This document shows, one piece after another, positions 22,889 through 50,573 of a stretch of DNA of 64,000 bases. The stretch is from Bacilli bacterium. Lineage in GTDB: Bacteria > Bacillota_I > Bacilli_A > RF39 > UBA660. The translations under genes were made by a program, and so were the position numbers. Positions within the stretch are counted from its first letter, which is position 1. Each line of letters starts with the position of its first letter. Under the pieces are notes generated by a model. The model saw only the letters and a list, made by a program, of their open reading frames with translations. It was not told the origin of the DNA and made no database searches. Where the stretch lies: positions 23,952 through 87,951 of the forward strand of contig JAFUTX010000009.1 in assembly GCA_017484065.1 (NCBI GenBank), written 5' to 3'.

Positions 22889-24037
22889 TTAAATTGTTAA
22901 TTTATATGGTTTATTTGCTGAACCATTTGAATTTGGTCCAGCTACTATTTTAACTGTTGATTTAAGGTATGCTACTGGACGAATGTCGAATAAATAATAT
23001 GATGAAGTATCGTAAATATGCCCTAAAGTATTAATATAAATTATATTAGTTGTATAATTAGCAGCTGATGTCATTGTCCATTGATGCCAACTTGAATCTA
23101 ATAACCAATCACTATTTCTGCAAGGTTCATTTGTACTACTATCCCAATTACGAAGTGCTATTGTTCTACAACTATTTCCTGATACTATTCCGCTACTTGC
23201 ATAACCATAATCACTTGGATACATTAAACCTAAATTACCTGACCATGTTATCAAATTATTGTTACCAACATTTGTTCTTTCTGCTTCATACCATTTTGAG
23301 TTTATCATTGTTGTACCATCAAAACTTCCATTGTTATTCCATGTATATCCTCCTAGATAATATGTTGCACTTTCTATTAAGTTTTTAGATATATTATTTA
23401 AACCATTAGTTGTAAAGTCAATTGCAGAGGTTGGATAATCTCGACCTTGTCCTGTAGCATATCCATGATATGCAGCATGAGTTCCATTATTGTAATAATT
23501 TGTTAATACTTCATTAATTGTACTATTTGGCCAATTATTATTATATCTTCTAGATGAACATGTATATGTTCCATCTCCATTATCTGTCCAGTTTTCATCT
23601 GCACAACTATCATAGAAAGGGAAGTTTCCTAAGCTTTCAGCTCTAATAAGTTTTACTCTACTAGCCCCATCTCCTGATACTTCTCCACCATCTATATTAT
23701 TCATTACACCAATAATGCGCCATAGTTCATTATTAAACTTAACATAATTATTCGGATTCGCTCCCATATATCTTATATTTTCATCTGGTGTATCATCTAT
23801 AAACATTGTATCAGGGTTATCTTCAACTATACTTGTTAAATACTCTACGGCATTAACTGGTTCTACTACTTTACCATTTATCATTTCATAGCTATCACTT
23901 ACTACTTCAAATTTAGCATAACTGTTGTATAGTTTTATTCCAATTACAATTAATGTTAATAAACATATACTTACTAACAATGTATTTCTTTTACGATTAT
24001 CTTTTATTCGATAATCAAATCTATGTAGGCGACTCAT
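22889..24037 (-). CDS. Membrane-anchored secreted protein, paralog A of the 49025-50179 gene
   Basis: 382 aa. Signal-anchor TM at residues 20-40. Near-identical to paralog B over the first approx 200 aa, diverged mid-region, conserved C-terminal motif PVAYLKS.VKIVAGPNS.GSA.KPYKLTI. Confidence 0.6.
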   Translation of the reverse strand: MSRLHRFDYRIKDNRKRNTLLVSICLLTLIVIGIKLYNSYAKFEVVSDSYEMINGKVVEPVNAVEYLTSIVEDNPDTMFIDDTPDENIRYMGANPNNYVKFNNELWRIIGVMNNIDGGEVSGDGASRVKLIRAESLGNFPFYDSCADENWTDNGDGTYTCSSRRYNNNWPNSTINEVLTNYYNNGTHAAYHGYATGQGRDYPTSAIDFTTNGLNNISKNLIESATYYLGGYTWNNNGSFDGTTMINSKWYEAERTNVGNNNLITWSGNLGLMYPSDYGYASSGIVSGNSCRTIALRNWDSSTNEPCRNSDWLLDSSWHQWTMTSAANYTTNIIYINTLGHIYDTSSYYLFDIRPVAYLKSTVKIVAGPNSNGSANKPYKLTI

Positions 24038-24262
24038 TGTTGTTCACCTACTAAAGTATTAGAAAGGCATCTTATTTTATTATAAAGATACCCCCCCCCT
24101 ATTGCTTAAAATCATATTTAACAACACCTTTCACTTTAAAATTCGTATATTTTTTTACACACAAATTCTATTTTTATCTAAAATAATAATATCATTACTC
24201 TCAACAAAAAACAACAAAAAAAGATATTGCAATGAGTGAATATCTTTTATATAATTATATTA
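24038..24262 (-). promoter_or_regulatory. Conserved leader cassette A with a G9-tract uORF (24115..24080, MILSNRGGVSL*)
   Basis: RBS-like GAAAGGTG 9 nt before the uORF ATG. C9 on the plus strand at 24091-24099. The same architecture recurs at 35498-35727 and 50180-50345. Confidence 0.6.
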
Positions 24263-24480
24263 GTAGAACGTTTAGGTTTCAACTAGACGGCTACATTTTG
24301 TGACCATCTAATCTAGATGGTTTTTGCAATTAATAGGATAATTATAGCTAGTAGTGCAGTCTCTAGCAACTTATGATAGAATTTATCGCTCATAAGTATC
24401 CCTCCTCTCATCAAGAAAAGTTAGGTATTACCAAAACCACCCTGAATAAGAGTAACCATCAACTAAATGTTCTGATGTTC
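24258..24480. repeat. Diverged copy of the approx 210-bp inverted-repeat element (see 35728-35936)
   Basis: Shares 5' flank ...tattgcaat...ttttatataattatatt.gtagaacg and 3' flank ...gttctgatgttctattata...aatttcaaccgattcgacaaatgttg with the two copies at 35.7-36.4 kb. Confidence 0.45.
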
Positions 24481-24613
24481 TATTATAGATAAAATATTGT
24501 GAATTTCAACCGATTCGACAAATGTTGTAATCATAAAAAAAGAAATAGCAATTGCTATCTCTTAGATATTATTCTTCAACTTATTTAATCTAAATCATTA
24601 AACATAATTGAAG

Positions 24614-24649
24614 GAAAAAATATGTACTAAATAATACCTGTGTACATAT
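24614..24649 (-). terminator. Rho-independent terminator of the YihY-like gene
   Basis: 8-bp stem ATATGTAC/GTACATAT followed by a T6 run on the minus strand, directly after the stop codon. Confidence 0.55.
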
Positions 24650-24654
24650 TAATA

Positions 24655-25500
24655 TTATTTACTATTATCTTCTTTAAATTCTTCCTTTTTTTGGTAGTTA
24701 ATCTCTTCACTATTAATAGCTATACCAACGGTTAAAGCAATTGATAATAAATAGAACCAGATCATTAATACTACAATTGTAGCTAAACTTCCATAATAAA
24801 TAGAATATCTGGCGTAATGTGTTACATAGAATGAATAAATAGCTGAAATTAATACCCATGCAAATGTTGTAAATATTGCACCCTTATTCATTTTACTACT
24901 TGGAATAGGTTCATCCGGAGCCATTGTAAATATAGTTTTAATAACAAAAAACGTTACTAGCCAATAAACAGGACCTTTTAAAATATGTAATAGCACTTGG
25001 ATATGAGTAGTAATCTCTGCTCCACCATTAACATATTTTATTAATTCTAATATTTTATTACCAAAGACTGGCACTATTAACATAAATACCAGTAACATTA
25101 TAATTATAAATATCATAAACATAGATTTAATCTTACGATATATAAAGGGTTTTTGTTCTATTTTATATAAAGTATTAGAGGTAACTATTATACTAGATGC
25201 AGCTTTACTAGCTATATAATAAGCTATTATCATTGTAATAACTATACTCGTACTTACTCCGTTACCAAACCCTTTAGATATAAATAAGCTAGCAATATCT
25301 TCATTAAACATTTTTGTAATAAAATTATACACAAAATCCATAGATAAGTGAAATAAAGAAGCAATATAAGAAAGCAAAGATATAGTAGGAACAATAGATA
25401 ATATTAAGAAAAACGCAATTTGTCCTGGTAAAACTATCATCTCTGGTCTTTTTAAGATTTTATATAACTTTTTTATTACTTCTTTAATTTTTTTCTTCAT
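24655..25500 (-). CDS. YihY/BrkB-family membrane protein
   Basis: 281 aa, 6 TM helices. Start MKKKIKEVIKKLYKILKRPEMIVLPGQIAFFLILSIVP is typical of the YihY family. Confidence 0.7.
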   Translation of the reverse strand: MKKKIKEVIKKLYKILKRPEMIVLPGQIAFFLILSIVPTISLLSYIASLFHLSMDFVYNFITKMFNEDIASLFISKGFGNGVSTSIVITMIIAYYIASKAASSIIVTSNTLYKIEQKPFIYRKIKSMFMIFIIIMLLVFMLIVPVFGNKILELIKYVNGGAEITTHIQVLLHILKGPVYWLVTFFVIKTIFTMAPDEPIPSSKMNKGAIFTTFAWVLISAIYSFYVTHYARYSIYYGSLATIVVLMIWFYLLSIALTVGIAINSEEINYQKKEEFKEDNSK

Positions 25501-31914: not shown

Positions 31915-32110
31915 AATAAAAAGATGATACCAAAAAGGACGAAATTATCCGTGGTACCACCTTTATTTATACTCTTTTTGTTAACGCAGTAGACCTGCGA
32001 GACTTTCTTACTAAATTTCAGAAATCCAACTCCCAAGTGATTTTCTATTAACCAATTTATCTATTTCCACCAACCATAGACTCTCTATTAAATTCAAATT
32101 AATATACTCT
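31915..32110 (-). promoter_or_regulatory. T-box riboswitch leader (Ile specifier AUC) for ileS
   Basis: Minus-strand RNA carries the T-box AAAGGUGGUACCACGG. A terminator hairpin with a UUUUUAUUUU run follows. The stem I specifier loop reads AUCA-CUUGGGAGUUGG. Confidence 0.8.
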
Positions 32111-32172
32111 TCTTGCTCATAATTTTTTAAAATTATAAACCTATTATAGTATTAAAATATGCAAAATGCAAA

Positions 32173-34252: not shown

Positions 34253-35497
34253 TTAGTTAGGTATCCAGTTAGCAGTATAAGTTCTATTACCTGTACTACC
34301 TTGTGGTATTGTTACAGAAGTTTGTTTATCTATATATGGTTCCCAATCAGTTGCAATATCTCCTTCTTCTAGTTGAATTCTATATACTCCTTCATAACTT
34401 TTTATCATTATTCCTATATTATTTGACTCTGATAATGTGAATGTTCTTGTAACATTTTCCATATTAAATATAGGTACAGCTAATATATGATTATTATTAA
34501 AATCATAGAAATTTATTCCTCCATATTTAGAGACCAACTCACTAGATGGAATTGTAATAAAATTTAAAGATAATGTATAGTCACCTTGAGACAATCCTAC
34601 TTTACCATTATTTCTATCATAACTCCAACCACGATCATCACTACCATTAGGTGTACTACGATAAACATATCCATTTTCATCTACTTCATATCCAACATTT
34701 ACTGCACTGGTGCTTAATTCATTATAATTCAACAAGTTCTTACCACCACTCCATCCTGCAAAGGTGTATCCTTCTTTAGTTGGATTACTTATGCTAAATG
34801 TTGTATCGTTTTCATCATATTCATTTCTATTTATTTTGGTAAGTATTCCTCCATCTAAATCATACGTTATATGCCATTTAGTTGGATTACTATTTTCTGG
34901 TTCATTAACATTGTTTATTTCTATCTTACTTTCAAATGTTTTATTATTAATATCTTCATAAGGTGTATCTTCATCTATCCATAAATATAGATTATATTCT
35001 TTGGTAGTGTTTCCATCTATCTTTTCTATCTCTAATTTCTTAGCAGTATTATATCCATCTATATTTATTTCATTACTATCTGATAATTCACTTATTTGTG
35101 ATGGCCATACTATATAATCATTATCACTTATTAAAGATAATCTTAAATTGTTTGTTAATAATGTATTACTACTTTTCATATCTAATTGAATACTAACATA
35201 TTCATCTTCACTACAATTATTAGTTATTTTAAATGTGTATGGTACTTGTTCTAGGGCTTCATGATCACTTAGTTGATAAGAATTAACTAAGTTTATTGGT
35301 TTATTATCGTTAACTACTAAATCTAAACAGCTAATATTTACTTGATTGAAACCTTCTTGTTCTTCTGTAGCAGACCATAAAGCGTAACTATAACTGCTTA
35401 TAATTATTACAAGTATAGCTACTATTATTGTACTTATTATTATCTTTTTATTTTTATTATTCTTTTTTAAATAAAGATTTTTACCCCTGATTGTCAT
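34253..35497 (-). CDS. Membrane-anchored surface protein with Listeria-Bacteroides-type repeat (GYTFAGW)
   Basis: 414 aa. Signal anchor. C-terminal KEGYTFAGWSGG...RTYTANW matches the Listeria/Bacteroides repeat domain. Shares its 5' leader cassette with the two paralogs. Confidence 0.55.
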   Translation of the reverse strand: MTIRGKNLYLKKNNKNKKIIISTIIVAILVIIISSYSYALWSATEEQEGFNQVNISCLDLVVNDNKPINLVNSYQLSDHEALEQVPYTFKITNNCSEDEYVSIQLDMKSSNTLLTNNLRLSLISDNDYIVWPSQISELSDSNEINIDGYNTAKKLEIEKIDGNTTKEYNLYLWIDEDTPYEDINNKTFESKIEINNVNEPENSNPTKWHITYDLDGGILTKINRNEYDENDTTFSISNPTKEGYTFAGWSGGKNLLNYNELSTSAVNVGYEVDENGYVYRSTPNGSDDRGWSYDRNNGKVGLSQGDYTLSLNFITIPSSELVSKYGGINFYDFNNNHILAVPIFNMENVTRTFTLSESNNIGIMIKSYEGVYRIQLEEGDIATDWEPYIDKQTSVTIPQGSTGNRTYTANWIPN

Positions 35498-35727
35498 AGG
35501 TTTTCACCTACTAAAGTTTTAGAAAGGCTTATATTGTTATTACAAAGCCCCCCCCCGATTTTGATTTTTAGCCATAATTCAACAACACCTTTCATTTTTA
35601 AAATTTGTGATTTATTTTACCCACAAATTCTATTTTTATCTAAAATAATAATATCATTACTCTCAACAAAAAACAACAAAAAAAGCTATTGCAATAAATG
35701 AATAACTTTTATATAATTATATTGATA
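35498..35727 (-). promoter_or_regulatory. Conserved leader cassette B with a G9-tract uORF (35575..35540, MAKNQNRGGAL*)
   Basis: C9 at 35548-35556. GAAAGGTG RBS-like element 10 nt before the uORF ATG. About 150 nt further upstream is nearly identical to cassette A. Confidence 0.6.
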
Positions 35728-35936
35728 GAACGCAAGTTTTTCAGCGGCTATCGAAATGTTTGATATCCACCTATTAGGTGGTTTTTATTTAGTATAATAT
35801 TAGTAAAACTATTATTATAAAAAACAAGACAATTATAAATACTGGATTAATATCTTTCTTCAGTACCATCACCTGCACTTTCCATTGAATTATAAAACCC
35901 CCTGAAAAGCCGGAAAGCCGCCTAAGGCTTGCGTTC
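35728..35936. repeat. Approx 209-bp element with 9-bp terminal inverted repeats (GAACGCAAG...CTTGCGTTC), copy 1; MITE-like or structured ncRNA
   Basis: Perfect 9-bp TIR plus inner complementary GCGGCU/AGCCGC. AT-rich interior with a CCACC-tatta-GGTGG hairpin. Second copy at 36134-36341, diverged copy at 24258-24480. Confidence 0.55.
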
Positions 35937-36133
35937 TGATGCTCTATAATATATAAAAAAAATTGGAATTTCAACTGATTCGACAAAAGTTGTCAAAACT
36001 TATCAAATAACGACAAGTTTTTATGTTAAATACTAATTAACACTATTACTCATGCTTATTTTTGTTGACATTTTTTATTTAACAAAAAAAGTTATTGCAA
36101 TTAATCAATAAATTTTATATAATTATGTTGATA

Positions 36134-36341
36134 GAACGCAAGTTTTTCAGCGGCTATCCGATTTGGATATACCACCTATTAGGTGGTTTTTATTTAGTAT
36201 AATATTAGTAAAACTATTATTATAAAAAACAAGACAATTATAAATACCGGATTAATATCTTTCTTCATAACTATCACCTGCACTTTCCATTGAATTATAT
36301 AACCCCCTGAAAAGCCGGAAAGCCGCCTAAGGCTTGCGTTC
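36134..36341. repeat. Approx 208-bp inverted-repeat element, copy 2 (approx 95% identical to copy 1)
   Basis: Same TIRs and interior as 35728-35936. The flanks (approx 50 bp on each side) are also duplicated, giving an approx 320-bp direct repeat with a period of approx 406 bp. Confidence 0.55.
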
Positions 36342-36410
36342 TGATGTTCTATTATAAGTATAAAAATCTAAATTTCAACCGATTCGACAAATGTTGCCAA
36401 AACTTGTCAA

Positions 36411-37742
36411 TTATCGATGTTTATTAATTAACTCTTTTGATTTTTGATATTGATTTTCAAATCTATGACATAACTCATGATGACATAAATCATATTCAAC
36501 TTCCGGATCATTTTCATCATATATAAAATCAGCATCAATGATAACGATATCGCCTTTTTTTAATTGTTCACCACCAATATATGGTTGCAATCCTAATGAC
36601 CCATCAGATACTGGTAGATTTTTTCTCCAGTATCTTTTATTATCTTTTAATAAAATACCAACATTATCTAGTAATACATCAGTCCATATTAAACCAATAT
36701 CTCTTACCTTTTTATAAATCTCATATAAATCATTTTCATCTATTTTAGTATTCGTATCAACTCTTTCGCAAACTTCAATAAATATACTATTTAAATCGTC
36801 TATTTCTATTTTCTTACGCAATAGAGGTGCTACTATATATGGATTATTAGAAAATGTATCATTATTTCTATTAACTCCAAATTTAAAAACTTTTTCACCA
36901 ATTAATAAAGCTGTTGAAAAACTTCCATCACCAATTTGTTTGATATCTGTAATATCTATATTTTCATTGGCACATATATCTTTGATAACTAAATAAATTA
37001 TTTCAATACTGGAATTAATAGTATTTTTTTCTAATTCACTAAAAGAATGATAATCTAAACGATTTAGCAAGCATTTATTAACAAGTGCTGTTATTCTTAG
37101 TTTAGAATTAATAGTTATTTCATTATTTATAATATCTTTGTAATCTTCTCCTAATAAATCTTTTAAATAGAATAAATCTATTGTATTAGTTTGTAATATT
37201 AAATCAAGATTATCTTTAAATAAATATGTATAATCATGGGTATTTATTATAGAATTAATATATTCTAAAGTTGAATTGGTGTATTTTTTATTAGTTAGTA
37301 AAGAAATTAACATAGTTGGAATATAGTCTTTATAATTATCAAAAATTATTAAATATAAATAATTAATTACACATATATTGGTATAATTATAATTAAGATT
37401 TAATATTTTATTTAATAATTTAATACATTCTTCATTAGTAAGCTTATATACAGATATCACCTTAAGTATATTATATATACATTTTTCTAAAGAACTTGCT
37501 GGTATTTTATCTAAATTATCAATAAATACATTTAAAATATCTTTATTATTAAATAGTTTTGATATTTCATTTATCCAAGGATAACTAAATACTCCAGTTA
37601 ATTCACACATTAAAGGAATATTTTCTATTATTTGTTCATATTGATGTTCTTCTATTGCTTGTTTTAAAGCACCTGTTATAGAATAATAGTTATTATTTCC
37701 AGCTTTAATTCTAGTTCTTAATATTTCCTTTCTTAAATTCAT
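36411..37742 (-). CDS. Hypothetical protein (443 aa), possible kinase-like fold
   Basis: Intact ORF. Glycine-rich IGDGSFSTALLIGEKVFKFG and HHELCHRFEN loosely recall a kinase G-loop and catalytic loop. Confidence 0.4.
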   Translation of the reverse strand: MNLRKEILRTRIKAGNNNYYSITGALKQAIEEHQYEQIIENIPLMCELTGVFSYPWINEISKLFNNKDILNVFIDNLDKIPASSLEKCIYNILKVISVYKLTNEECIKLLNKILNLNYNYTNICVINYLYLIIFDNYKDYIPTMLISLLTNKKYTNSTLEYINSIINTHDYTYLFKDNLDLILQTNTIDLFYLKDLLGEDYKDIINNEITINSKLRITALVNKCLLNRLDYHSFSELEKNTINSSIEIIYLVIKDICANENIDITDIKQIGDGSFSTALLIGEKVFKFGVNRNNDTFSNNPYIVAPLLRKKIEIDDLNSIFIEVCERVDTNTKIDENDLYEIYKKVRDIGLIWTDVLLDNVGILLKDNKRYWRKNLPVSDGSLGLQPYIGGEQLKKGDIVIIDADFIYDENDPEVEYDLCHHELCHRFENQYQKSKELINKHR

Positions 37743-48764: not shown

Positions 48765-48965
48765 AAAATAAAAACACGACATAACTCATCTTAAGGACGA
48801 AAGGACGAATTAGCCGTGGTACCACCTTATTTTCTAGTATGAACTAGCTCTATTCTCTTATAAGGGTGAGAAACCCAGAACAATCCAAAAGCAAGTTCAT
48901 AAATTCTTTATTGTTAATTTCCACCAACCATTAACTCTCTTTAAATAAATCCTTTACTAATACTC
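48765..48965 (-). promoter_or_regulatory. T-box riboswitch leader (Leu specifier CUU) upstream of the small ORF and leuS
   Basis: Minus-strand RNA carries AAUAAGGUGGUACCACGG. Terminator ...GUCGUG + UUUUUAUUUU. Specifier loop gaaCUUG. Putative promoter TTGTAT-17-TATAAT at approx 48980-49008. Confidence 0.75.
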
Positions 48966-49024
48966 TTTTTTCATCTGCCATTAAATGTATTATAATTGAT
49001 TTATTAAGAAAATACAAGAGTGTT

Positions 49025-50179
49025 TTAGATTGTTAATTTATATGGTTTACTTGCAGAACCATCTGAATTAGGTCCAGCAACTATTTTGACATTTGATTTT
49101 AGGTATGCTACTGGTGTTAAGCTGAAGCTATAATCTGAACCGCTATTGCCAACATACCCGCTATCGTTTACATATGCACCGCCATTAAAGTTATCAGCGC
49201 GTGGAGTCATTGTCCATTGCCATGATGAACCATTTAATAACCAATCGTTATTCACACAGGGTGTATTTGCAGTTGTATTCCATGTATATAAAGCTATATT
49301 TCTACATCTATTATCCGATACAGAACCGTTGCTTGCGTAACCATAATCGCTTGTATACATTAATCCTAAATTACCTGTCCATGTCAAATTATTATTTGAA
49401 CCGGTATTTGTTCTCTCAGCTGCATACCATTTTGAGGATATTATAGTTGCGTAGAAAAATTGATTACCCTCTGTTGTAGTAAAGCCGCCTAAATAATATG
49501 TTGCTGGTTCTATTAAATTTTTAGCAACACTATTTAAACCATTACTGGAAAAATCTATTGGAGATGTTGGAGTATCTACCCAATTACTATTTACATACTT
49601 TTTCCCATGATATGCAGCATGTGTACCATTATTATAATATGTTGTTAATATTTCATTTGCTGTACTATTTGGCCAATTATTATTATACCTTGGAGAAGAA
49701 CATGTATACGTTCCATCTCCATTATCTGTCCAATTTTCGTCTGCACAACTATCATAATATGGAAAATTACCCAAACTTTCAGCTCTTATAAGCTTTACTC
49801 TACTAGCTCCATCTCCTGAAACTTCTCCACCATCTATATTATTCATTACACCAATAATGCGCCATAGTTCATTATTAAATTTAACATAGTTATTAGGGTC
49901 AGCTCCCATATATCTTATATTTTCATCTGGTGTATCATCTATAAACATAGTATCTTGGTTATCATCAACTATACTTGTTAAATATTCTACAGCATTAACT
50001 GGCTCTACTACTTTACCATTTATCATTTCATAACTATCACTTACTACTTCAAATTTAGCATAGCTATTATATAATTTTATTCCAATAACAACAATTGTTA
50101 ATAAACATATACTTACTAACAATATATTTCTTTTACGATTATCTTTAATTCGATAATCAAATTTATGTAAGCGACTCAT
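49025..50179 (-). CDS. Membrane-anchored secreted protein, paralog B of the 22889-24037 gene
   Basis: 384 aa. N-terminal approx 200 aa about 95% identical to paralog A. Divergent mid-region, conserved C-terminal motif. Confidence 0.6.
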   Translation of the reverse strand: MSRLHKFDYRIKDNRKRNILLVSICLLTIVVIGIKLYNSYAKFEVVSDSYEMINGKVVEPVNAVEYLTSIVDDNQDTMFIDDTPDENIRYMGADPNNYVKFNNELWRIIGVMNNIDGGEVSGDGASRVKLIRAESLGNFPYYDSCADENWTDNGDGTYTCSSPRYNNNWPNSTANEILTTYYNNGTHAAYHGKKYVNSNWVDTPTSPIDFSSNGLNSVAKNLIEPATYYLGGFTTTEGNQFFYATIISSKWYAAERTNTGSNNNLTWTGNLGLMYTSDYGYASNGSVSDNRCRNIALYTWNTTANTPCVNNDWLLNGSSWQWTMTPRADNFNGGAYVNDSGYVGNSGSDYSFSLTPVAYLKSNVKIVAGPNSDGSASKPYKLTI

Positions 50180-50345
50180 AGTTTGTCACCTACTAAAAAA
50201 GTTTTAGAAAGGTATCTTATTTTATTGTAAAGATACCCCCCCCCTATTTGCTATTTTCATATTTCCACTACCTTTCAGATTATATACTAATTTTACCATA
50301 TTTTTATATTCATTCAATAAAAAAATTGTCTTAATAGACAACTTT
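50180..50345 (-). promoter_or_regulatory. Conserved leader cassette C with a G9-tract uORF (50260..50222, MKIANRGGVSLQ*)
   Basis: C9 at 50236-50244. GAAAGGTAGTGG RBS-like element upstream. The region upstream of the uORF differs from cassettes A and B. Confidence 0.55.
50319..50341 (-). terminator. Rho-independent terminator of the Gly/Tyr-rich protein gene
   Basis: TTGTCT-atta-AGACAA stem followed by T7 on the minus strand. Confidence 0.55.
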
Positions 50346-50348
50346 TAA

Positions 50349-50573
50349 TTAACGATAATATCCATAACCGTAATTGTAACCATAACTATATGGAGCATAG
50401 CCATAAGGTCTTGGTCCATAGTAACCATAATTAGGATAAGCATTAATTATTGGTCTTGGTCTAGTTAAACCAATAGCAGCTCCTCCAACTAAAGCACCTG
50501 TTAAAAATGGAAATATAAATCTATCGCCATTATTGTTATATGGATTTCTAAAATTATTTGGATATTGATACAT
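50349..50573 (-). CDS. Small Gly/Tyr/Pro-rich protein (possible spore coat or surface structural protein)
   Basis: 74 aa. One hydrophobic segment. YGYYGPRPYGYAPYSYGYNYGYGYY tail. Own terminator. Confidence 0.4.
   Translation of the reverse strand: MYQYPNNFRNPYNNNGDRFIFPFLTGALVGGAAIGLTRPRPIINAYPNYGYYGPRPYGYAPYSYGYNYGYGYYR

What the first reader, a model, noticed from the sequence alone, without database searches (positions are those of the whole stretch)
24038..24120. Three surface-protein genes share a leader uORF spanning a G9 homopolymer; a -1 slip would couple the uORF to the main ORF through an ATGA overlap
In this roughly 27% GC genome a C9/G9 run occurs only three times (24091-24099, 35548-35556, 50236-50244). 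Each lies 51-57 nt upstream of the start of a membrane-anchored surface protein gene (22889-24037, 34253-35497, 49025-50179). Each is embedded in a short ORF preceded by a GAAAGGTG-like RBS. On the minus strand these uORFs read ATG ATT TTA AGC AAT AGG GGG GGG GTA TCT TTA TAA (A), ATG GCT AAA AAT CAA AAT CGG GGG GGG GCT TTG TAA (B) and ATG AAA ATA GCA AAT AGG GGG GGG GTA TCT TTA CAA TAA (C). With G8 instead of G9, the uORF in all three copies stays open for 18, 17 and 19 further codons through otherwise diverged AT-rich sequence. It terminates exactly on a TGA that overlaps the main-gene ATG (CAATGAGT, CTATGACA, CTATGAGT). The spacer lengths of 54, 51 and 57 nt differ only by multiples of 3, as expected if the -1 frame is under selection. 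This is the signature of a slipped-strand phase switch acting through termination-reinitiation coupling. I do not recognise it as a described system. All three loci are in the apparently uncoupled G9 state here. The target gene products differ (two paralogs plus an unrelated Listeria-Bacteroides-repeat protein), so the cassette looks like a portable regulatory module.
Basis: partly seen in the sequence, partly recalled or inferred. Interest (0 to 1): 0.9.

Follow-up and report, generated by a model that had tools for sequence, protein, structure and literature searches.

The report
Poly-G switch in leader ORFs
Three surface-protein genes of an uncultured gut bacterium each carry a run of nine Gs inside a tiny leader gene, most likely a mutational on/off switch acting through the leader's reading frame, a new twist on a known kind of phase variation.

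Summary
The window's only three G/C runs of 8 or more are G9 tracts. Each lies in a short leader ORF with its own Shine-Dalgarno (SD) sequence, 50-56 nt upstream of a membrane-anchored surface-protein gene. Ten distinct cassettes from two or three related genomes share one design: promoter, SD, ATG, 4-5 codons, (A/C)GG-GGG-GGG, then a covarying hairpin whose 5' arm is the G run. In the G9 and G10 frames the leader stops in the hairpin loop. In the G8/G11 frame it stays open to the main start in 10 of 10 cassettes. It ends at ATGA in the window's genome and at ATGAGTAG in a second genome. In genes A and C the main SD is locked in a second hairpin. Sister loci fuse the same leader directly to the protein. 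Clusters of near-identical proteins show full-length versus N-terminally truncated forms, and two assemblies have G10. Best reading: a slipped-strand contingency tract that switches expression through leader-to-gene translational coupling. The tract lies in the transcribed leader, not in a promoter spacer. The coupling step is inferred, not shown. No copy in the predicted ON state (G8) was seen at a coupled locus. The closest described system is the Streptococcus gallolyticus pil1 leader-peptide switch, so this is a new variant of a known kind.

The parts
24125..24132 (-). Cassette A: Shine-Dalgarno (SD) sequence of the leader ORF (GAAAGGTG), 9 nt before its ATG
   Evidence: Read directly from the sequence.
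24080..24115 (-). Cassette A: leader ORF as it reads in the G9 state (MILSNRGGVSL*). Its stop TAA (24082-24080) lies in the loop of hairpin 1.
24091..24099 (-). Cassette A: G9 homopolymer, read as A-GG GGG GGG G. These are rare codons: AGG 1.05 and GGG 2.26 per 1000.
   Evidence: Another sample's contig has G10 here, 5 nt from the contig end.
24061..24097 (-). Cassette A: hairpin 1. Seven Gs plus UAUCUU pair with AAGAUG-CCUUUCU over 13 bp including G-U pairs, so the structure is specific to the RNA strand.
   Evidence: -14.9 kcal/mol, z -3.9. The stems covary across six sequence types.
24034..24115 (-). Cassette A: extent of the long leader ORF if the tract were G8 or G11. It ends on TGA 24036-24034, overlapping the main ATG 24037-24035.
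24025..24051 (-). Cassette A: hairpin 2. The main SD GUAGGUG (24051-24045) pairs with codons 3-5, CGCCUAC (24031-24025), and the AUG sits in the loop.
   Evidence: -11.4 kcal/mol, z -3.8. P(SD unpaired) is 0.00. SD accessibility is second lowest of 45 window ORFs.
22889..24037 (-). Gene A: surface protein of 382 aa with an N-terminal membrane anchor. The family is uncharacterised.
35586..35593 (-). Cassette B: SD of the leader ORF (GAAAGGTG)
35540..35575 (-). Cassette B: leader ORF in the G9 state (MAKNQNRGGAL*)
35548..35556 (-). Cassette B: G9 homopolymer, read as C-GG GGG GGG G. CGG occurs at 0.22 per 1000 codons.
35521..35554 (-). Cassette B: hairpin 1 (G7 plus CUU pairs with AAG-CCUUUCU). 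An alternative pairing joins the leader SD GAAAGGU to GCCUUUC.
   Evidence: -11.6 kcal/mol, z -2.8. The alternative fold appears.
35496..35511 (-). Cassette B: small hairpin 2 (GUAGGU-GAAA-ACCUAU) covering the main SD and the first two bases of the AUG. It is weaker than in A and C.
   Evidence: -6.2 kcal/mol, z -1.1. P(SD unpaired) is 0.21.
34253..35497 (-). Gene B: membrane-anchored protein of 414 aa with a Listeria-Bacteroides repeat. Its N-terminal domain is shared with long family members.
50290..50317 (-). Cassette C: promoter-like site TTGAAT-16-TGgTAAAAT, 13 nt upstream of the leader SD
   Evidence: It is conserved in paralogue locus L006.
50271..50276 (-). Cassette C: SD of the leader ORF (GAAAGG)
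50222..50260 (-). Cassette C: leader ORF in the G9 state (MKIANRGGVSLQ*)
50236..50244 (-). Cassette C: G9 homopolymer
50206..50242 (-). Cassette C: hairpin 1 (13 bp)
   Evidence: -14.9 kcal/mol, z -4.1.
50167..50193 (-). Cassette C: hairpin 2 (GUAGGUG pairs with CGCUUAC), sequestering the main SD
   Evidence: -11.5 kcal/mol, z -4.7. SD accessibility is the lowest of 45 window ORFs.
49025..50179 (-). Gene C: paralogue of A (384 aa, 76% identity)

Best explanation

The tract length sets the leader's reading frame. With 3n or 3n+1 Gs (G9, G10), the ribosome stops in the loop of a conserved hairpin, 5-16 nt after the tract. With 3n+2 Gs (G8, G11), it reads on for 17-19 codons, passes over the main Shine-Dalgarno (SD) sequence, and terminates on the TGA that overlaps the main ATG.

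That passage opens the hairpin that hides the main SD and lets the ribosome restart on the main ORF. The gene is then ON or high. Otherwise it is OFF or low.

What is shown: the anatomy, frame conservation in 10 of 10 cassettes, covarying hairpins, the tract's position in the transcribed leader, fused sister loci, and natural length and ON/OFF polymorphism in the family.

What is inferred: that slippage occurs at these three loci, that the leader is translated, and that coupling rather than independent initiation drives the main ORF.
For: 1. Tracts. The only G/C runs of 6 or more in the window are these three.

2. Conserved design. Ten distinct cassettes were found: A, B, C, L006, L008, L013, L015 and three in L016, all with G9. 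L017 has G10, and L002 (locus A in another sample) has G10. All share an SD, an ATG and 4-5 codons, and read the tract as Arg-Gly-Gly.

3. Frame conservation. The G8 frame is open to the main start in 10 of 10. Each has a shuffle probability of 0.18-0.24, and the product for the four least related types is 0.002. The other two frames always stop in the loop. Length differences within a genome are all multiples of 3 (53/50/56 nt, and 52/49 nt).

4. Position in the leader. Consensus promoters TTGCAA-17-TATAAT end 45 nt upstream of the tract in the second genome, and TTGAAT-16-TGgTAAAAT lies upstream of C. The tract is therefore in the 5' leader.

5. Main SD sequestration. In A, C, L006, L008 and L017 the main SD is sequestered (dG -10 to -12.7 kcal/mol; P(unpaired) 0.00-0.03). 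A and C rank lowest of 45 window ORFs for SD accessibility. The pairing uses the rare codon CGC, at 0.99 per 1000.

6. Fused sister loci. In the third L016 cassette, the G8 frame runs straight into a membrane-anchor ORF that has no other start codon. P0149 begins MNYNINRGGYFNKQKYPK, the same G8-frame leader peptide (identical from NRGG to YPK) already in frame with its protein. P0121, from the same genome as the window, begins MDYQTNIRGGGIF.

7. Natural polymorphism. The cluster mate of P0121 starts at Met34 on contigs 1-2 nt shorter. Other clusters at 90% identity or more show 462 vs 404 aa (contigs of 9197 vs 9198 nt), 527 vs 424 aa, and alternative N-termini around GGG. N-terminal GGG occurs in 12 of 264 family proteins against 1.9 expected.
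Against: - No G8 or G11 copy of a coupled-type cassette was seen. All 12 full-length readings at coupled-type loci are G9 (10, re-observations included) or G10 (2), which are the predicted OFF states. The 11th G9 tract (L016 7869-7877) is of the fused type.
- One G10 lies at a contig end, and Illumina assemblies are unreliable at poly-G.
- The main genes have good SD sequences of their own. SD sequestration is only moderate for B (z -1.1) and absent in the second genome (-3.5 kcal/mol, z -0.3), so dependence on coupling is not general.
- The exact ATGA overlap is replaced by ATGAGTAG in the second genome.
- The role of hairpin 1 is unexplained.
- No expression or read-level data are available.
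Confidence: 0.6

Rival explanations
1. Programmed recoding at a fixed G9. The tract is kept at nine Gs, and a fraction of ribosomes shift +1 on the rare-codon run (A/C)GG-GGG-GGG-G. Alternatively, RNA polymerase slips on the run. Either way the long leader, or the fused protein, is made without any DNA change.
For: - G9 is found at 10 of 10 distinct complete loci with an internal tract in two genomes, apart from L017.
- AGG, CGG and GGG are all rare codons, at 1.05, 0.22 and 2.26 per 1000.
- A glycyl-tRNA on GGG can re-pair perfectly one base downstream (read from the sequence).
- The fused locus L016 7869-7877 is out of frame at G9.
Against: - In-frame DNA alleles exist, so recoding is not needed: P0149 (G8-type) and P0121 (G10-type).
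- Near-identical proteins differ between full-length and truncated calls, with contig lengths differing by 1 nt.
- G10 variants exist (L017, L002).
- Hairpin 1 is already unwound when the ribosome sits on the tract, so it cannot act as a downstream stimulator.
- From general knowledge: polymerase slippage is known for A/T runs and much less for G/C runs.
- From general knowledge: uniform G9 is also expected from a mutational attractor, as reported for Campylobacter poly-G tracts.
Confidence: 0.12
2. Evolutionary relic. The cassette descends from the fused, intragenic arrangement. In the window's three genes the main ORF has acquired its own SD and ATG and is expressed independently, so the tract has little or no effect.
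For: - All coupled-type loci have a strong SD (TAGGTGA) at good spacing.
- SD sequestration is weak in B and in the second genome.
- Fused forms are common in the family.
Against: - A relic should decay. Instead the tract is intact, and the G8 frame is open in 10 of 10 cassettes despite very different spacer sequences. All indels are multiples of 3.
- Every intergenic TAGTAGGTG+ATG site in the loci held has a tract upstream.
- The SD of A and C is the most occluded of 45 ORFs.
Confidence: 0.15
3. RNA-structure rheostat. Tract length acts through hairpin 1 rather than through the reading frame. It could alter hairpin stability, RNase III processing, or binding of a C/U-rich small RNA. The hairpin pairs the G run with the anti-SD-like CCUUUCU or CCUCC sequence, and this competes with pairing to the leader SD GAAAGG.
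For: - Hairpin 1 is significant and covaries in all six sequence types.
- It uses G-U pairs, so it is RNA-specific.
- In B the minimum-energy fold instead pairs the leader SD with CCUUUC.
- Precedents exist: the hmw 5'-UTR repeat hairpin cut by RNase III (PMC12721329) and RepG pairing with a G-repeat (PMC8295292).
Against: - It does not explain the conserved ATG, SD and frame of the leader, the open G8 frame, or the multiple-of-3 indels.
- It does not explain the fused loci.
- One G more or less changes a hairpin of 10-13 bp only slightly.
Confidence: 0.08
4. Promoter-spacer tract. The G run lies between a -35 and a -10 box (TATAAT follows the tract in A), and its length tunes transcription.
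For: TATAAT or TACAAT lies 6 nt after the tract in A and C.
Against: - No acceptable -35 box precedes it.
- The -10-like box is not conserved in position in B, L008 or the second genome.
- Strong consensus promoters lie upstream of the leader SD.
- The promoter scan reports no site with the tract in its spacer.
Confidence: 0.02

Closest known systems
Streptococcus gallolyticus pil1 (and pil3) leader-peptide phase variation (Danne et al. 2014, PMC3894217)
   Same: - A simple repeat inside a translated leader ORF lies upstream of a surface-structure gene in a Firmicute.
- Repeat number sets the leader's frame and hence where it stops.
- The short leader gives low expression. The long leader, whose ribosome reaches a downstream hairpin, gives high expression.
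- Most cells are in the low state.
   Different: - There the repeat is (GCAGA)n and the target hairpin is an intrinsic transcription terminator, so the mechanism is attenuation.
- Here the repeat is a G9 homopolymer and no terminator-like site exists.
- Here the long leader ends on or just past the main start codon, and the hairpin it would open hides the SD. This points to translational coupling.
- The same cassette also occurs fused in frame to the protein.
Classical intragenic homopolymer phase variation near the 5' end of surface-protein genes (Campylobacter poly-G, Neisseria pilC poly-G, Mycoplasma hominis vaa poly-A; from general knowledge)
   Same: - A homopolymer of about 9 nt follows just after the start codon of variable surface proteins in a multigene family.
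- Two of three lengths are out of frame.
- Sister loci here (L016 7869-7877, P0149, P0121, cluster P0203) have exactly this arrangement.
   Different: In the window's three loci the tract-bearing ORF is separate from the protein ORF. In its open frame it ends at the protein's start codon, so the frame cannot act by truncating the protein.
Haemophilus influenzae hmw1A 5'-UTR repeat hairpin processed by RNase III (PMC12721329)
   Same: A repeat tract transcribed in the 5' leader of an adhesin gene forms one arm of a long hairpin with a complementary purine- or pyrimidine-rich arm.
   Different: - There the repeat is a heptamer, no leader ORF is involved, and the effect is graded through RNase III.
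- RNase III involvement was not tested here.
Helicobacter pylori RepG small RNA and the tlpB G-repeat (PMC8295292)
   Same: A variable G homopolymer in an mRNA leader is base-paired by a C/U-rich RNA segment.
   Different: - There the partner is a trans-acting small RNA and the regulation is gradual.
- Here the C/U-rich partner lies in cis, 20-30 nt downstream, and the tract is inside an ORF.
Translational coupling by termination-reinitiation at overlapping stop and start codons (ATGA), with the downstream SD hidden in structure (general bacterial mechanism; from general knowledge)
   Same: The upstream ORF's stop overlaps the downstream ATG. The downstream SD is paired in A and C and would be opened by the arriving ribosome.
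   Different: Here the overlap exists only in one of the three tract-length classes, so coupling itself would be the switched step.

Membership tests
Slipped-strand contingency locus (homopolymer phase variation) | Long homopolymer, far beyond what composition predicts, in or next to a surface-protein gene | tested here: met
   There are three G9 runs, giving six overlapping G8 matches against 0.05 expected, and no other G/C run of 6 or more. All lie 50-56 nt before genes for membrane-anchored proteins.
Slipped-strand contingency locus (homopolymer phase variation) | Tract length differs between strains or samples at the same locus (the window's three loci) | tested here: inconclusive
   Locus A is G9 in the window and in L001 but G10 in L002, where the tract is 5 nt from the contig end. 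Loci B and C are G9 in the one other contig read for each. Read-level data are not available.
Slipped-strand contingency locus (homopolymer phase variation) | Tract-linked ON/OFF polymorphism in the wider gene family | tested here: met
   - L008 has G9 and L017 has G10.
- P0121 (531 aa) has a cluster mate of 498 aa that starts at Met34.
- Clusters P0203, P0147, P0135 and P0212 each hold full-length and N-terminally truncated forms or forms with alternative N-termini. Contig lengths differ by 1 nt (9197 vs 9198).
Slipped-strand contingency locus (homopolymer phase variation) | A change in length reversibly changes expression | not testable with these tools
   This needs reporters or single-cell expression data.
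Leader-peptide phase variation with attenuation (S. gallolyticus pil1 type) | Repeat inside a translated leader ORF, whose stop position depends on repeat number | tested here: met
   The G9 and G10 frames stop 5-16 nt after the tract. The G8 frame stops at the main start.
Leader-peptide phase variation with attenuation (S. gallolyticus pil1 type) | Intrinsic transcription terminator between the short-leader stop and the gene, melted by the long-leader ribosome | tested here: not met
   No terminator-like site lies in or after the cassettes. Hairpin 1 is followed by AAUAC or GAAAAAA, not a U tract. Hairpin 2 has a 13-nt loop that holds the AUG.
Translational coupling (termination-reinitiation) | The upstream stop overlaps or lies within a few nt of the downstream start | tested here: met
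   This holds in the G8 frame only. The stop is the TGA of ATGA in six cassettes of the window's lineage, and the TAG of ATGAGTAG in four cassettes of the second genome.
Translational coupling (termination-reinitiation) | The downstream ribosome-binding site is occluded unless the upstream ORF is translated | tested here: inconclusive
   Occlusion is strong for A, C, L006, L008 and L017 (P(unpaired) 0.00-0.03). It is moderate for B (0.21) and weak in the second genome (0.33-0.45). These are predictions only.
Promoter-spacer homopolymer switch (vlp, fim, opc type) | The tract lies between the -35 and -10 boxes | tested here: not met
   Consensus promoters end 45 nt upstream of the tract, and about 45 nt upstream in C. 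No scan hit has the tract in its spacer.
Programmed +1 ribosomal frameshift site | Conserved slippery site with a slow codon, and a product obtainable only by recoding | tested here: inconclusive
   A slippery rare-codon run is present and G9 predominates. However, in-frame DNA alleles exist (P0149, P0121), so recoding is not required.
Known RNA families (Rfam) | Match to a curated covariance model | tested here: not met
   No hit with E up to 1 over 23950-24700 or 35400-36500. At gathering score the window holds only two T-boxes.

The most novel reading that the evidence does not exclude
The cassette is a self-contained, portable phase-variation module made of promoter, SD, ATG, G9 and hairpin. 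It can be placed in front of any gene, either fused to it or coupled through an overlapping stop and start.

Its conserved hairpin, which pairs the G run with an anti-SD-like pyrimidine tract, may not be a passive structure. It could tune the tract's own instability or processing, as recently shown for the hmw repeat hairpin. Alternatively it could work with the rare Arg-Gly-Gly codons to give a programmed +1 shift, so that G9 would be a leaky, regulated state rather than OFF.
Probability: 0.15. Interest if true: 0.75.

Novelty: new variant of a known kind. Interest (0 to 1): 0.55.

Why it matters
If confirmed, this would add a third way for a repeat tract to switch a gene. The known ways are frame-shifting the protein itself and re-spacing a promoter. 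Here the tract would switch translational coupling from a leader ORF.

It would also show that one small cassette can be moved between unrelated surface-protein genes, either as a fusion or as a coupled upstream ORF. The cassette marks a large, uncharacterised family of variable surface proteins in uncultured low-GC gut and rumen Bacilli (4892 cluster representatives with E up to 0.001). This suggests that antigenic or adhesive variation is important for these commensals.

There is a practical point too. Gene callers mis-start or truncate these genes, and assemblies break at the tract.

Tried and rejected
- A scan of genome contigs with CCTTTCTAAN{3,12}TTTAGTAGGTGA found only a chance hit inside a coding region of a Clostridia MAG.
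- A scan of metagenome contigs with GGGGGGGN{14,40}CCTTTCTN{6,24}TAGTAGGTG found only a chance hit in eukaryote-like DNA.
- Two protein searches found nothing: the predicted fused N-terminus and the N-terminal 203 aa of P0020.
- The longer paralogues in the same genome (L007, L010-L012, about 54 kb) have no cassette and no G run of 6 or more.
- Rfam gave no family match.
- A terminator or attenuator reading of hairpin 1 was rejected, because no U tract follows it and the scans report no terminator-like site.
- The promoter-spacer reading was rejected (see the rival explanations).
- A MAFFT alignment of hairpin 1 did not bring the 3' arms into register. No formal pair count was made, and covariation is argued from the individual folds.
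- In the window's lineage the G9-frame stop lies exactly 45 nt before the main ATG in five cassettes. This is not kept in the second genome (47 or 44 nt), so I did not build on it.
- DNA for the ON/OFF protein pairs (P0121 vs P0122, P0275 vs P0276) could not be fetched.
Full report
**Observation**

The window has 26.75% GC, and its only G or C runs of 6 or more are three G9 runs on the minus strand: 24091-24099, 35548-35556 and 50236-50244. Chance expectation for G8 is 0.05 matches. Each ORF is preceded by GAAAGGTG, GAAAGGTG or GAAAGGTA.

The downstream genes are 22889-24037 (A), 34253-35497 (B) and 49025-50179 (C). All three encode proteins with an N-terminal membrane anchor. A and C are 76% identical, and B carries a Listeria-Bacteroides repeat. 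The tract-to-ATG distances are 53, 50 and 56 nt. With one G fewer, each leader runs on and ends on the TGA of ATGA at the main start. Long uninterrupted ORFs such as the 1053-aa isoleucyl-tRNA synthetase show that TGA is a stop codon in this organism.

**Related copies**

The organism is an uncultured 'Bacilli bacterium' MAG (locus tags IJ574_) that recurs in ruminant gut metagenomes. Scans of the genome and JGI metagenome collections with DNA patterns gave only chance hits. Exact-protein look-ups were more productive. They recovered the same three loci from other samples, a fourth cassette in the same genome (L006), two cassettes from related strains (L008, L017), and five cassettes from a second, more distant MAG with 25% GC, GCA_947629125.1 (L013, L015 and three in L016).

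Ten distinct loci have G9. L017 has G10. L002, which is locus A in another sample, has G10 at 5 nt from its contig end, and L014 begins inside the tract. The longer paralogues in L007 and L010-L012 have no cassette.

**Anatomy**

All cassettes share one layout.

- Promoter. In the second genome this is an unambiguous TTGCAA-17-TATAAT that ends 45 nt before the tract. Upstream of C and L006 it is TTGAAT-16-TGgTAAAAT.
- A Shine-Dalgarno (SD) sequence, then an ATG, then 4-5 codons.
- The tract, always read as (A/C)GG GGG GGG G.
- Hairpin 1, then a spacer, then the main SD (TAGGTGA or TAGGTGG), then the main ATG.

The tract is therefore in the transcribed leader, not in a promoter spacer. AGG, CGG and GGG are rare codons here, at 1.05, 0.22 and 2.26 per 1000 among 18111 codons.

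In hairpin 1, five to nine of the Gs plus the next 2-7 nt pair with a downstream segment that ends in a pyrimidine tract (CCUUUCU, CCUUCCUCUU, CCUCC or CCC). It scores -10.5 to -16.3 kcal/mol, with z -2.5 to -4.1, in all six sequence types. The non-G part of the stem differs and compensates between types: UAUCUU/AAGAUR, CUU/AAG, CU/AG plus UUC/GAA, UAUUUUA/UAGAAUA and UAUUU/AAGUA. Its G-U pairs make it specific to the sense RNA. It is not followed by a U tract, and no terminator-like site was found. No Rfam family matches.

**Frames**

In the G9 and G10 frames the leader stops inside the loop of hairpin 1. The G10-frame stop is always at +16 after the tract. In the G8/G11 frame the leader is open all the way to the main start in 10 of 10 cassettes. 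It ends on the TGA of ATGA in the six cassettes of the window's lineage, and on the TAG of ATGAGTAG, 3 nt past the ATG, in the four coupled-type cassettes of the second genome.

Shuffled spacers keep that frame open with probability 0.18-0.24 each. The product over the four least related types is 0.002. Within each genome the spacers differ only by multiples of 3: 53, 50 and 56 nt in one, and 52 and 49 nt in the other. This is what selection on the frame predicts and what a purely structural RNA does not.

**Why coupling could matter**

With 42 nt of coding sequence included in the fold, the main SD of A, C, L006, L008 and L017 pairs with codons 3-5 of the main ORF (GUAGGUG with CGCCUAC or CGCUUAC; UAGGUGGC with GCCGCUUA or GCCGCCUA), leaving the AUG in the loop. 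The energies are -10 to -12.7 kcal/mol, z is -2.3 to -4.7, and P(SD unpaired) is 0.00-0.03. The pairing uses the rare Arg codon CGC, at 0.99 per 1000.

Among 45 ORFs of the window, A and C have the two least accessible SD regions. B has a smaller hairpin, GUAGGU-GAAA-ACCUAU (-6.2 kcal/mol, z -1.1). In the second genome the equivalent pairing is weak (-3.5 kcal/mol). A ribosome arriving in the G8 frame would unwind this hairpin and terminate on or beside the start codon. That is the classical setting for reinitiation. This step is inferred from established knowledge of translational coupling and is not shown here.

**Evidence that tract length varies and that the G8 frame is productive**

- The third cassette on L016 (7869-7877, G9) has no separate main start. 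In the G8 frame its leader continues as MNNSTNRGGYFNKQKYPKEKYVIGASICLVLLIVVGVTYALW..., a typical anchor of this family.
- A database protein, P0149, begins MNYNINRGGYFNKQKYPK... It is the in-frame (G8-type) form of such a fusion.
- P0121, from the same MAG as the window (IJ574_02900), begins MDYQTNIRGGGIFHRK...TM. Its cluster mate at 90% identity or more, P0122, starts only at Met34, on contigs of 64696 nt against 64697 and 64698 nt.
- Further clusters of near-identical proteins show the same pattern. Cluster P0203 has 462-aa forms (MLGGGL.., MFGGGL..), 466- and 467-aa forms (MKQKYVGGGL.., MKQKYVWGGGL..) and 404-aa forms starting at an internal Met, with contigs of 9197 vs 9198 nt. Cluster P0147 has 527 vs 424 aa. 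Clusters P0135 and P0212 behave likewise.
- Gly-Gly-Gly within the first 25 residues occurs in 12 of 264 family proteins, against 1.9 expected.
- Together with G9 vs G10 in L008 and L017, this shows that the 5' poly-G tract is a family-wide variable feature.

**Interpretation**

The best-supported reading is a slipped-strand contingency tract in a translated leader ORF. Lengths of 3n+2 extend the leader to the main start and couple translation. Lengths of 3n and 3n+1 uncouple it.

I put this at 0.6. The phase-variable tract itself is well supported, and the coupling step less so.

The main weakness is that every coupled-type copy seen is G9 or G10, the predicted OFF states. This fits a family in which each locus is ON in a minority of cells and G9 is the mutational attractor. 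It equally fits selection for G9 itself. For that reason I keep two rivals alive: programmed +1 frameshifting or transcriptional slippage (0.12) and a decoupled relic (0.15). A purely structural rheostat (0.08) does not explain the frame data. The promoter-spacer idea (0.02) is contradicted by the promoter positions.

The function of hairpin 1 remains unexplained. It is present in the fused copies too, so it belongs to the tract module rather than to the coupling.

**Comparison with known systems**

In Streptococcus gallolyticus pil1, GCAGA repeats in a leader-peptide ORF shift its frame. The longer leader peptides stop within or after a hairpin, and the ribosome prevents that hairpin from forming (PMC3894217). 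There the hairpin is a transcription terminator. Here no terminator exists, and the long leader ends at the start codon, beside an SD-sequestering hairpin.

Other relatives in kind are listed below.

- Classical intragenic poly-G switches, which the sister loci literally are.
- The hmw 5'-UTR repeat hairpin cut by RNase III (PMC12721329).
- The RepG-tlpB G-repeat (PMC8295292).

Full-text searches combining phase variation with upstream ORFs, translational coupling and leader peptides found no description of a homopolymer switch that acts through termination-reinitiation. The library is incomplete, so this is weak evidence of absence.

**Verdict**

It is a new variant of a known kind, in a large uncharacterised family of surface proteins from uncultured gut Bacilli. 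The family has no Pfam, NCBIfam or PDB match for A, and 4892 cluster representatives match with E up to 0.001.

Noticed in passing
window 24250-24530 (minus); 35700-36000 and 36100-36400 (minus, two tandem copies); L008 100-330: A conserved module lies upstream of cassettes A and B and in L008.
- It starts with the promoter TTGACAACWTTTGTCGAATCGGTTGAAAT-N16-TATAAT, followed by a structured leader.
- It has an SD and a tiny hydrophobic ORF (MKKDINPVFIIVLFFIIIVLLILY* or MSDKFYHKLLETALLAIIILLIAKTI*).
- A hairpin follows whose T run is on the opposite strand.
- A 3' segment (AGCCGC..CTTGCGTTCT) is complementary to the 5' leader (AGAACGCAAG..GGCGGCT).
- A convergent promoter-like site lies on the plus strand (24227-24255).

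It looks like a type I toxin-antitoxin locus. There is no Rfam or Pfam match.
   Followed up: partly
window 31932-32129 and 48798-48983 (minus): Two T-box leaders, at 125 and 101 bits. One is upstream of the isoleucyl-tRNA synthetase gene. The other is upstream of a small ORF followed by a class I tRNA synthetase (804 aa).
   Followed up: no
window 24080-24082, 35540-35542, 50222-50224; L006, L008: In the five G9 cassettes of the window's lineage, the G9-frame stop lies exactly 45 nt before the main ATG, although the spacers are 53, 50 or 56 nt. Changes in the loop and downstream of it compensate for each other. The G10-frame stop is at +16 after the tract in all ten cassettes. The 45-nt rule does not hold in the second genome (47 or 44 nt).
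   Followed up: partly
window 24125-24132 with 24062-24068; 35586-35593 with 35522-35528: The leader's SD (GAAAGG) is the exact complement of the CCUUUC in the 3' arm of hairpin 1. That sequence is also identical to the 3' tail of Firmicute 16S rRNA (from general knowledge). In B the minimum-energy fold uses this long-range pairing instead of the G-run hairpin, and in L008 it extends to 10 bp. This could be an alternative structure that hides the leader's own ribosome-binding site.
   Followed up: partly
L002 1-15; L014 1-6: Two metagenome contigs begin at or inside the poly-G tract. Assemblies therefore break there, which is consistent with read heterogeneity or sequencing trouble at the tract.
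   Followed up: no
protein clusters P0203/P0275/P0282/P0288, P0135/P0272 and P0212/P0273: Some fused family members appear to have two upstream start codons in different frames (for example MKQKYVWGGGL... and MFGGGL...). Two of the three tract-length classes would then give a full-length protein with different N-termini, and only one class would be OFF.
   Followed up: no
P0084 (N-terminus MTVGGGVFCIIDIDRKLGLRK-MKLEKFKEKDNKRK...): This is a third arrangement. A GGG-containing leader reads in frame through to a main ORF that keeps its own canonical start (MKLEKFK...).
   Followed up: no
window 50350-50570 (minus); L004 2607-2831: A small ORF just upstream of cassette C encodes a Tyr/Gly-rich peptide ending ...YGYAPYSYGYNYGYGYYR*. 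It is followed by a terminator-like hairpin.
   Followed up: no
P0020/P0121 versus genes A and B: The protein family is modular. P0020 combines a B-like N-terminal domain (29% identity over residues 40-222) with an A-like C-terminal domain (46% identity over residues 201-530). Both domains lack any Pfam, NCBIfam or PDB annotation.
   Followed up: partly
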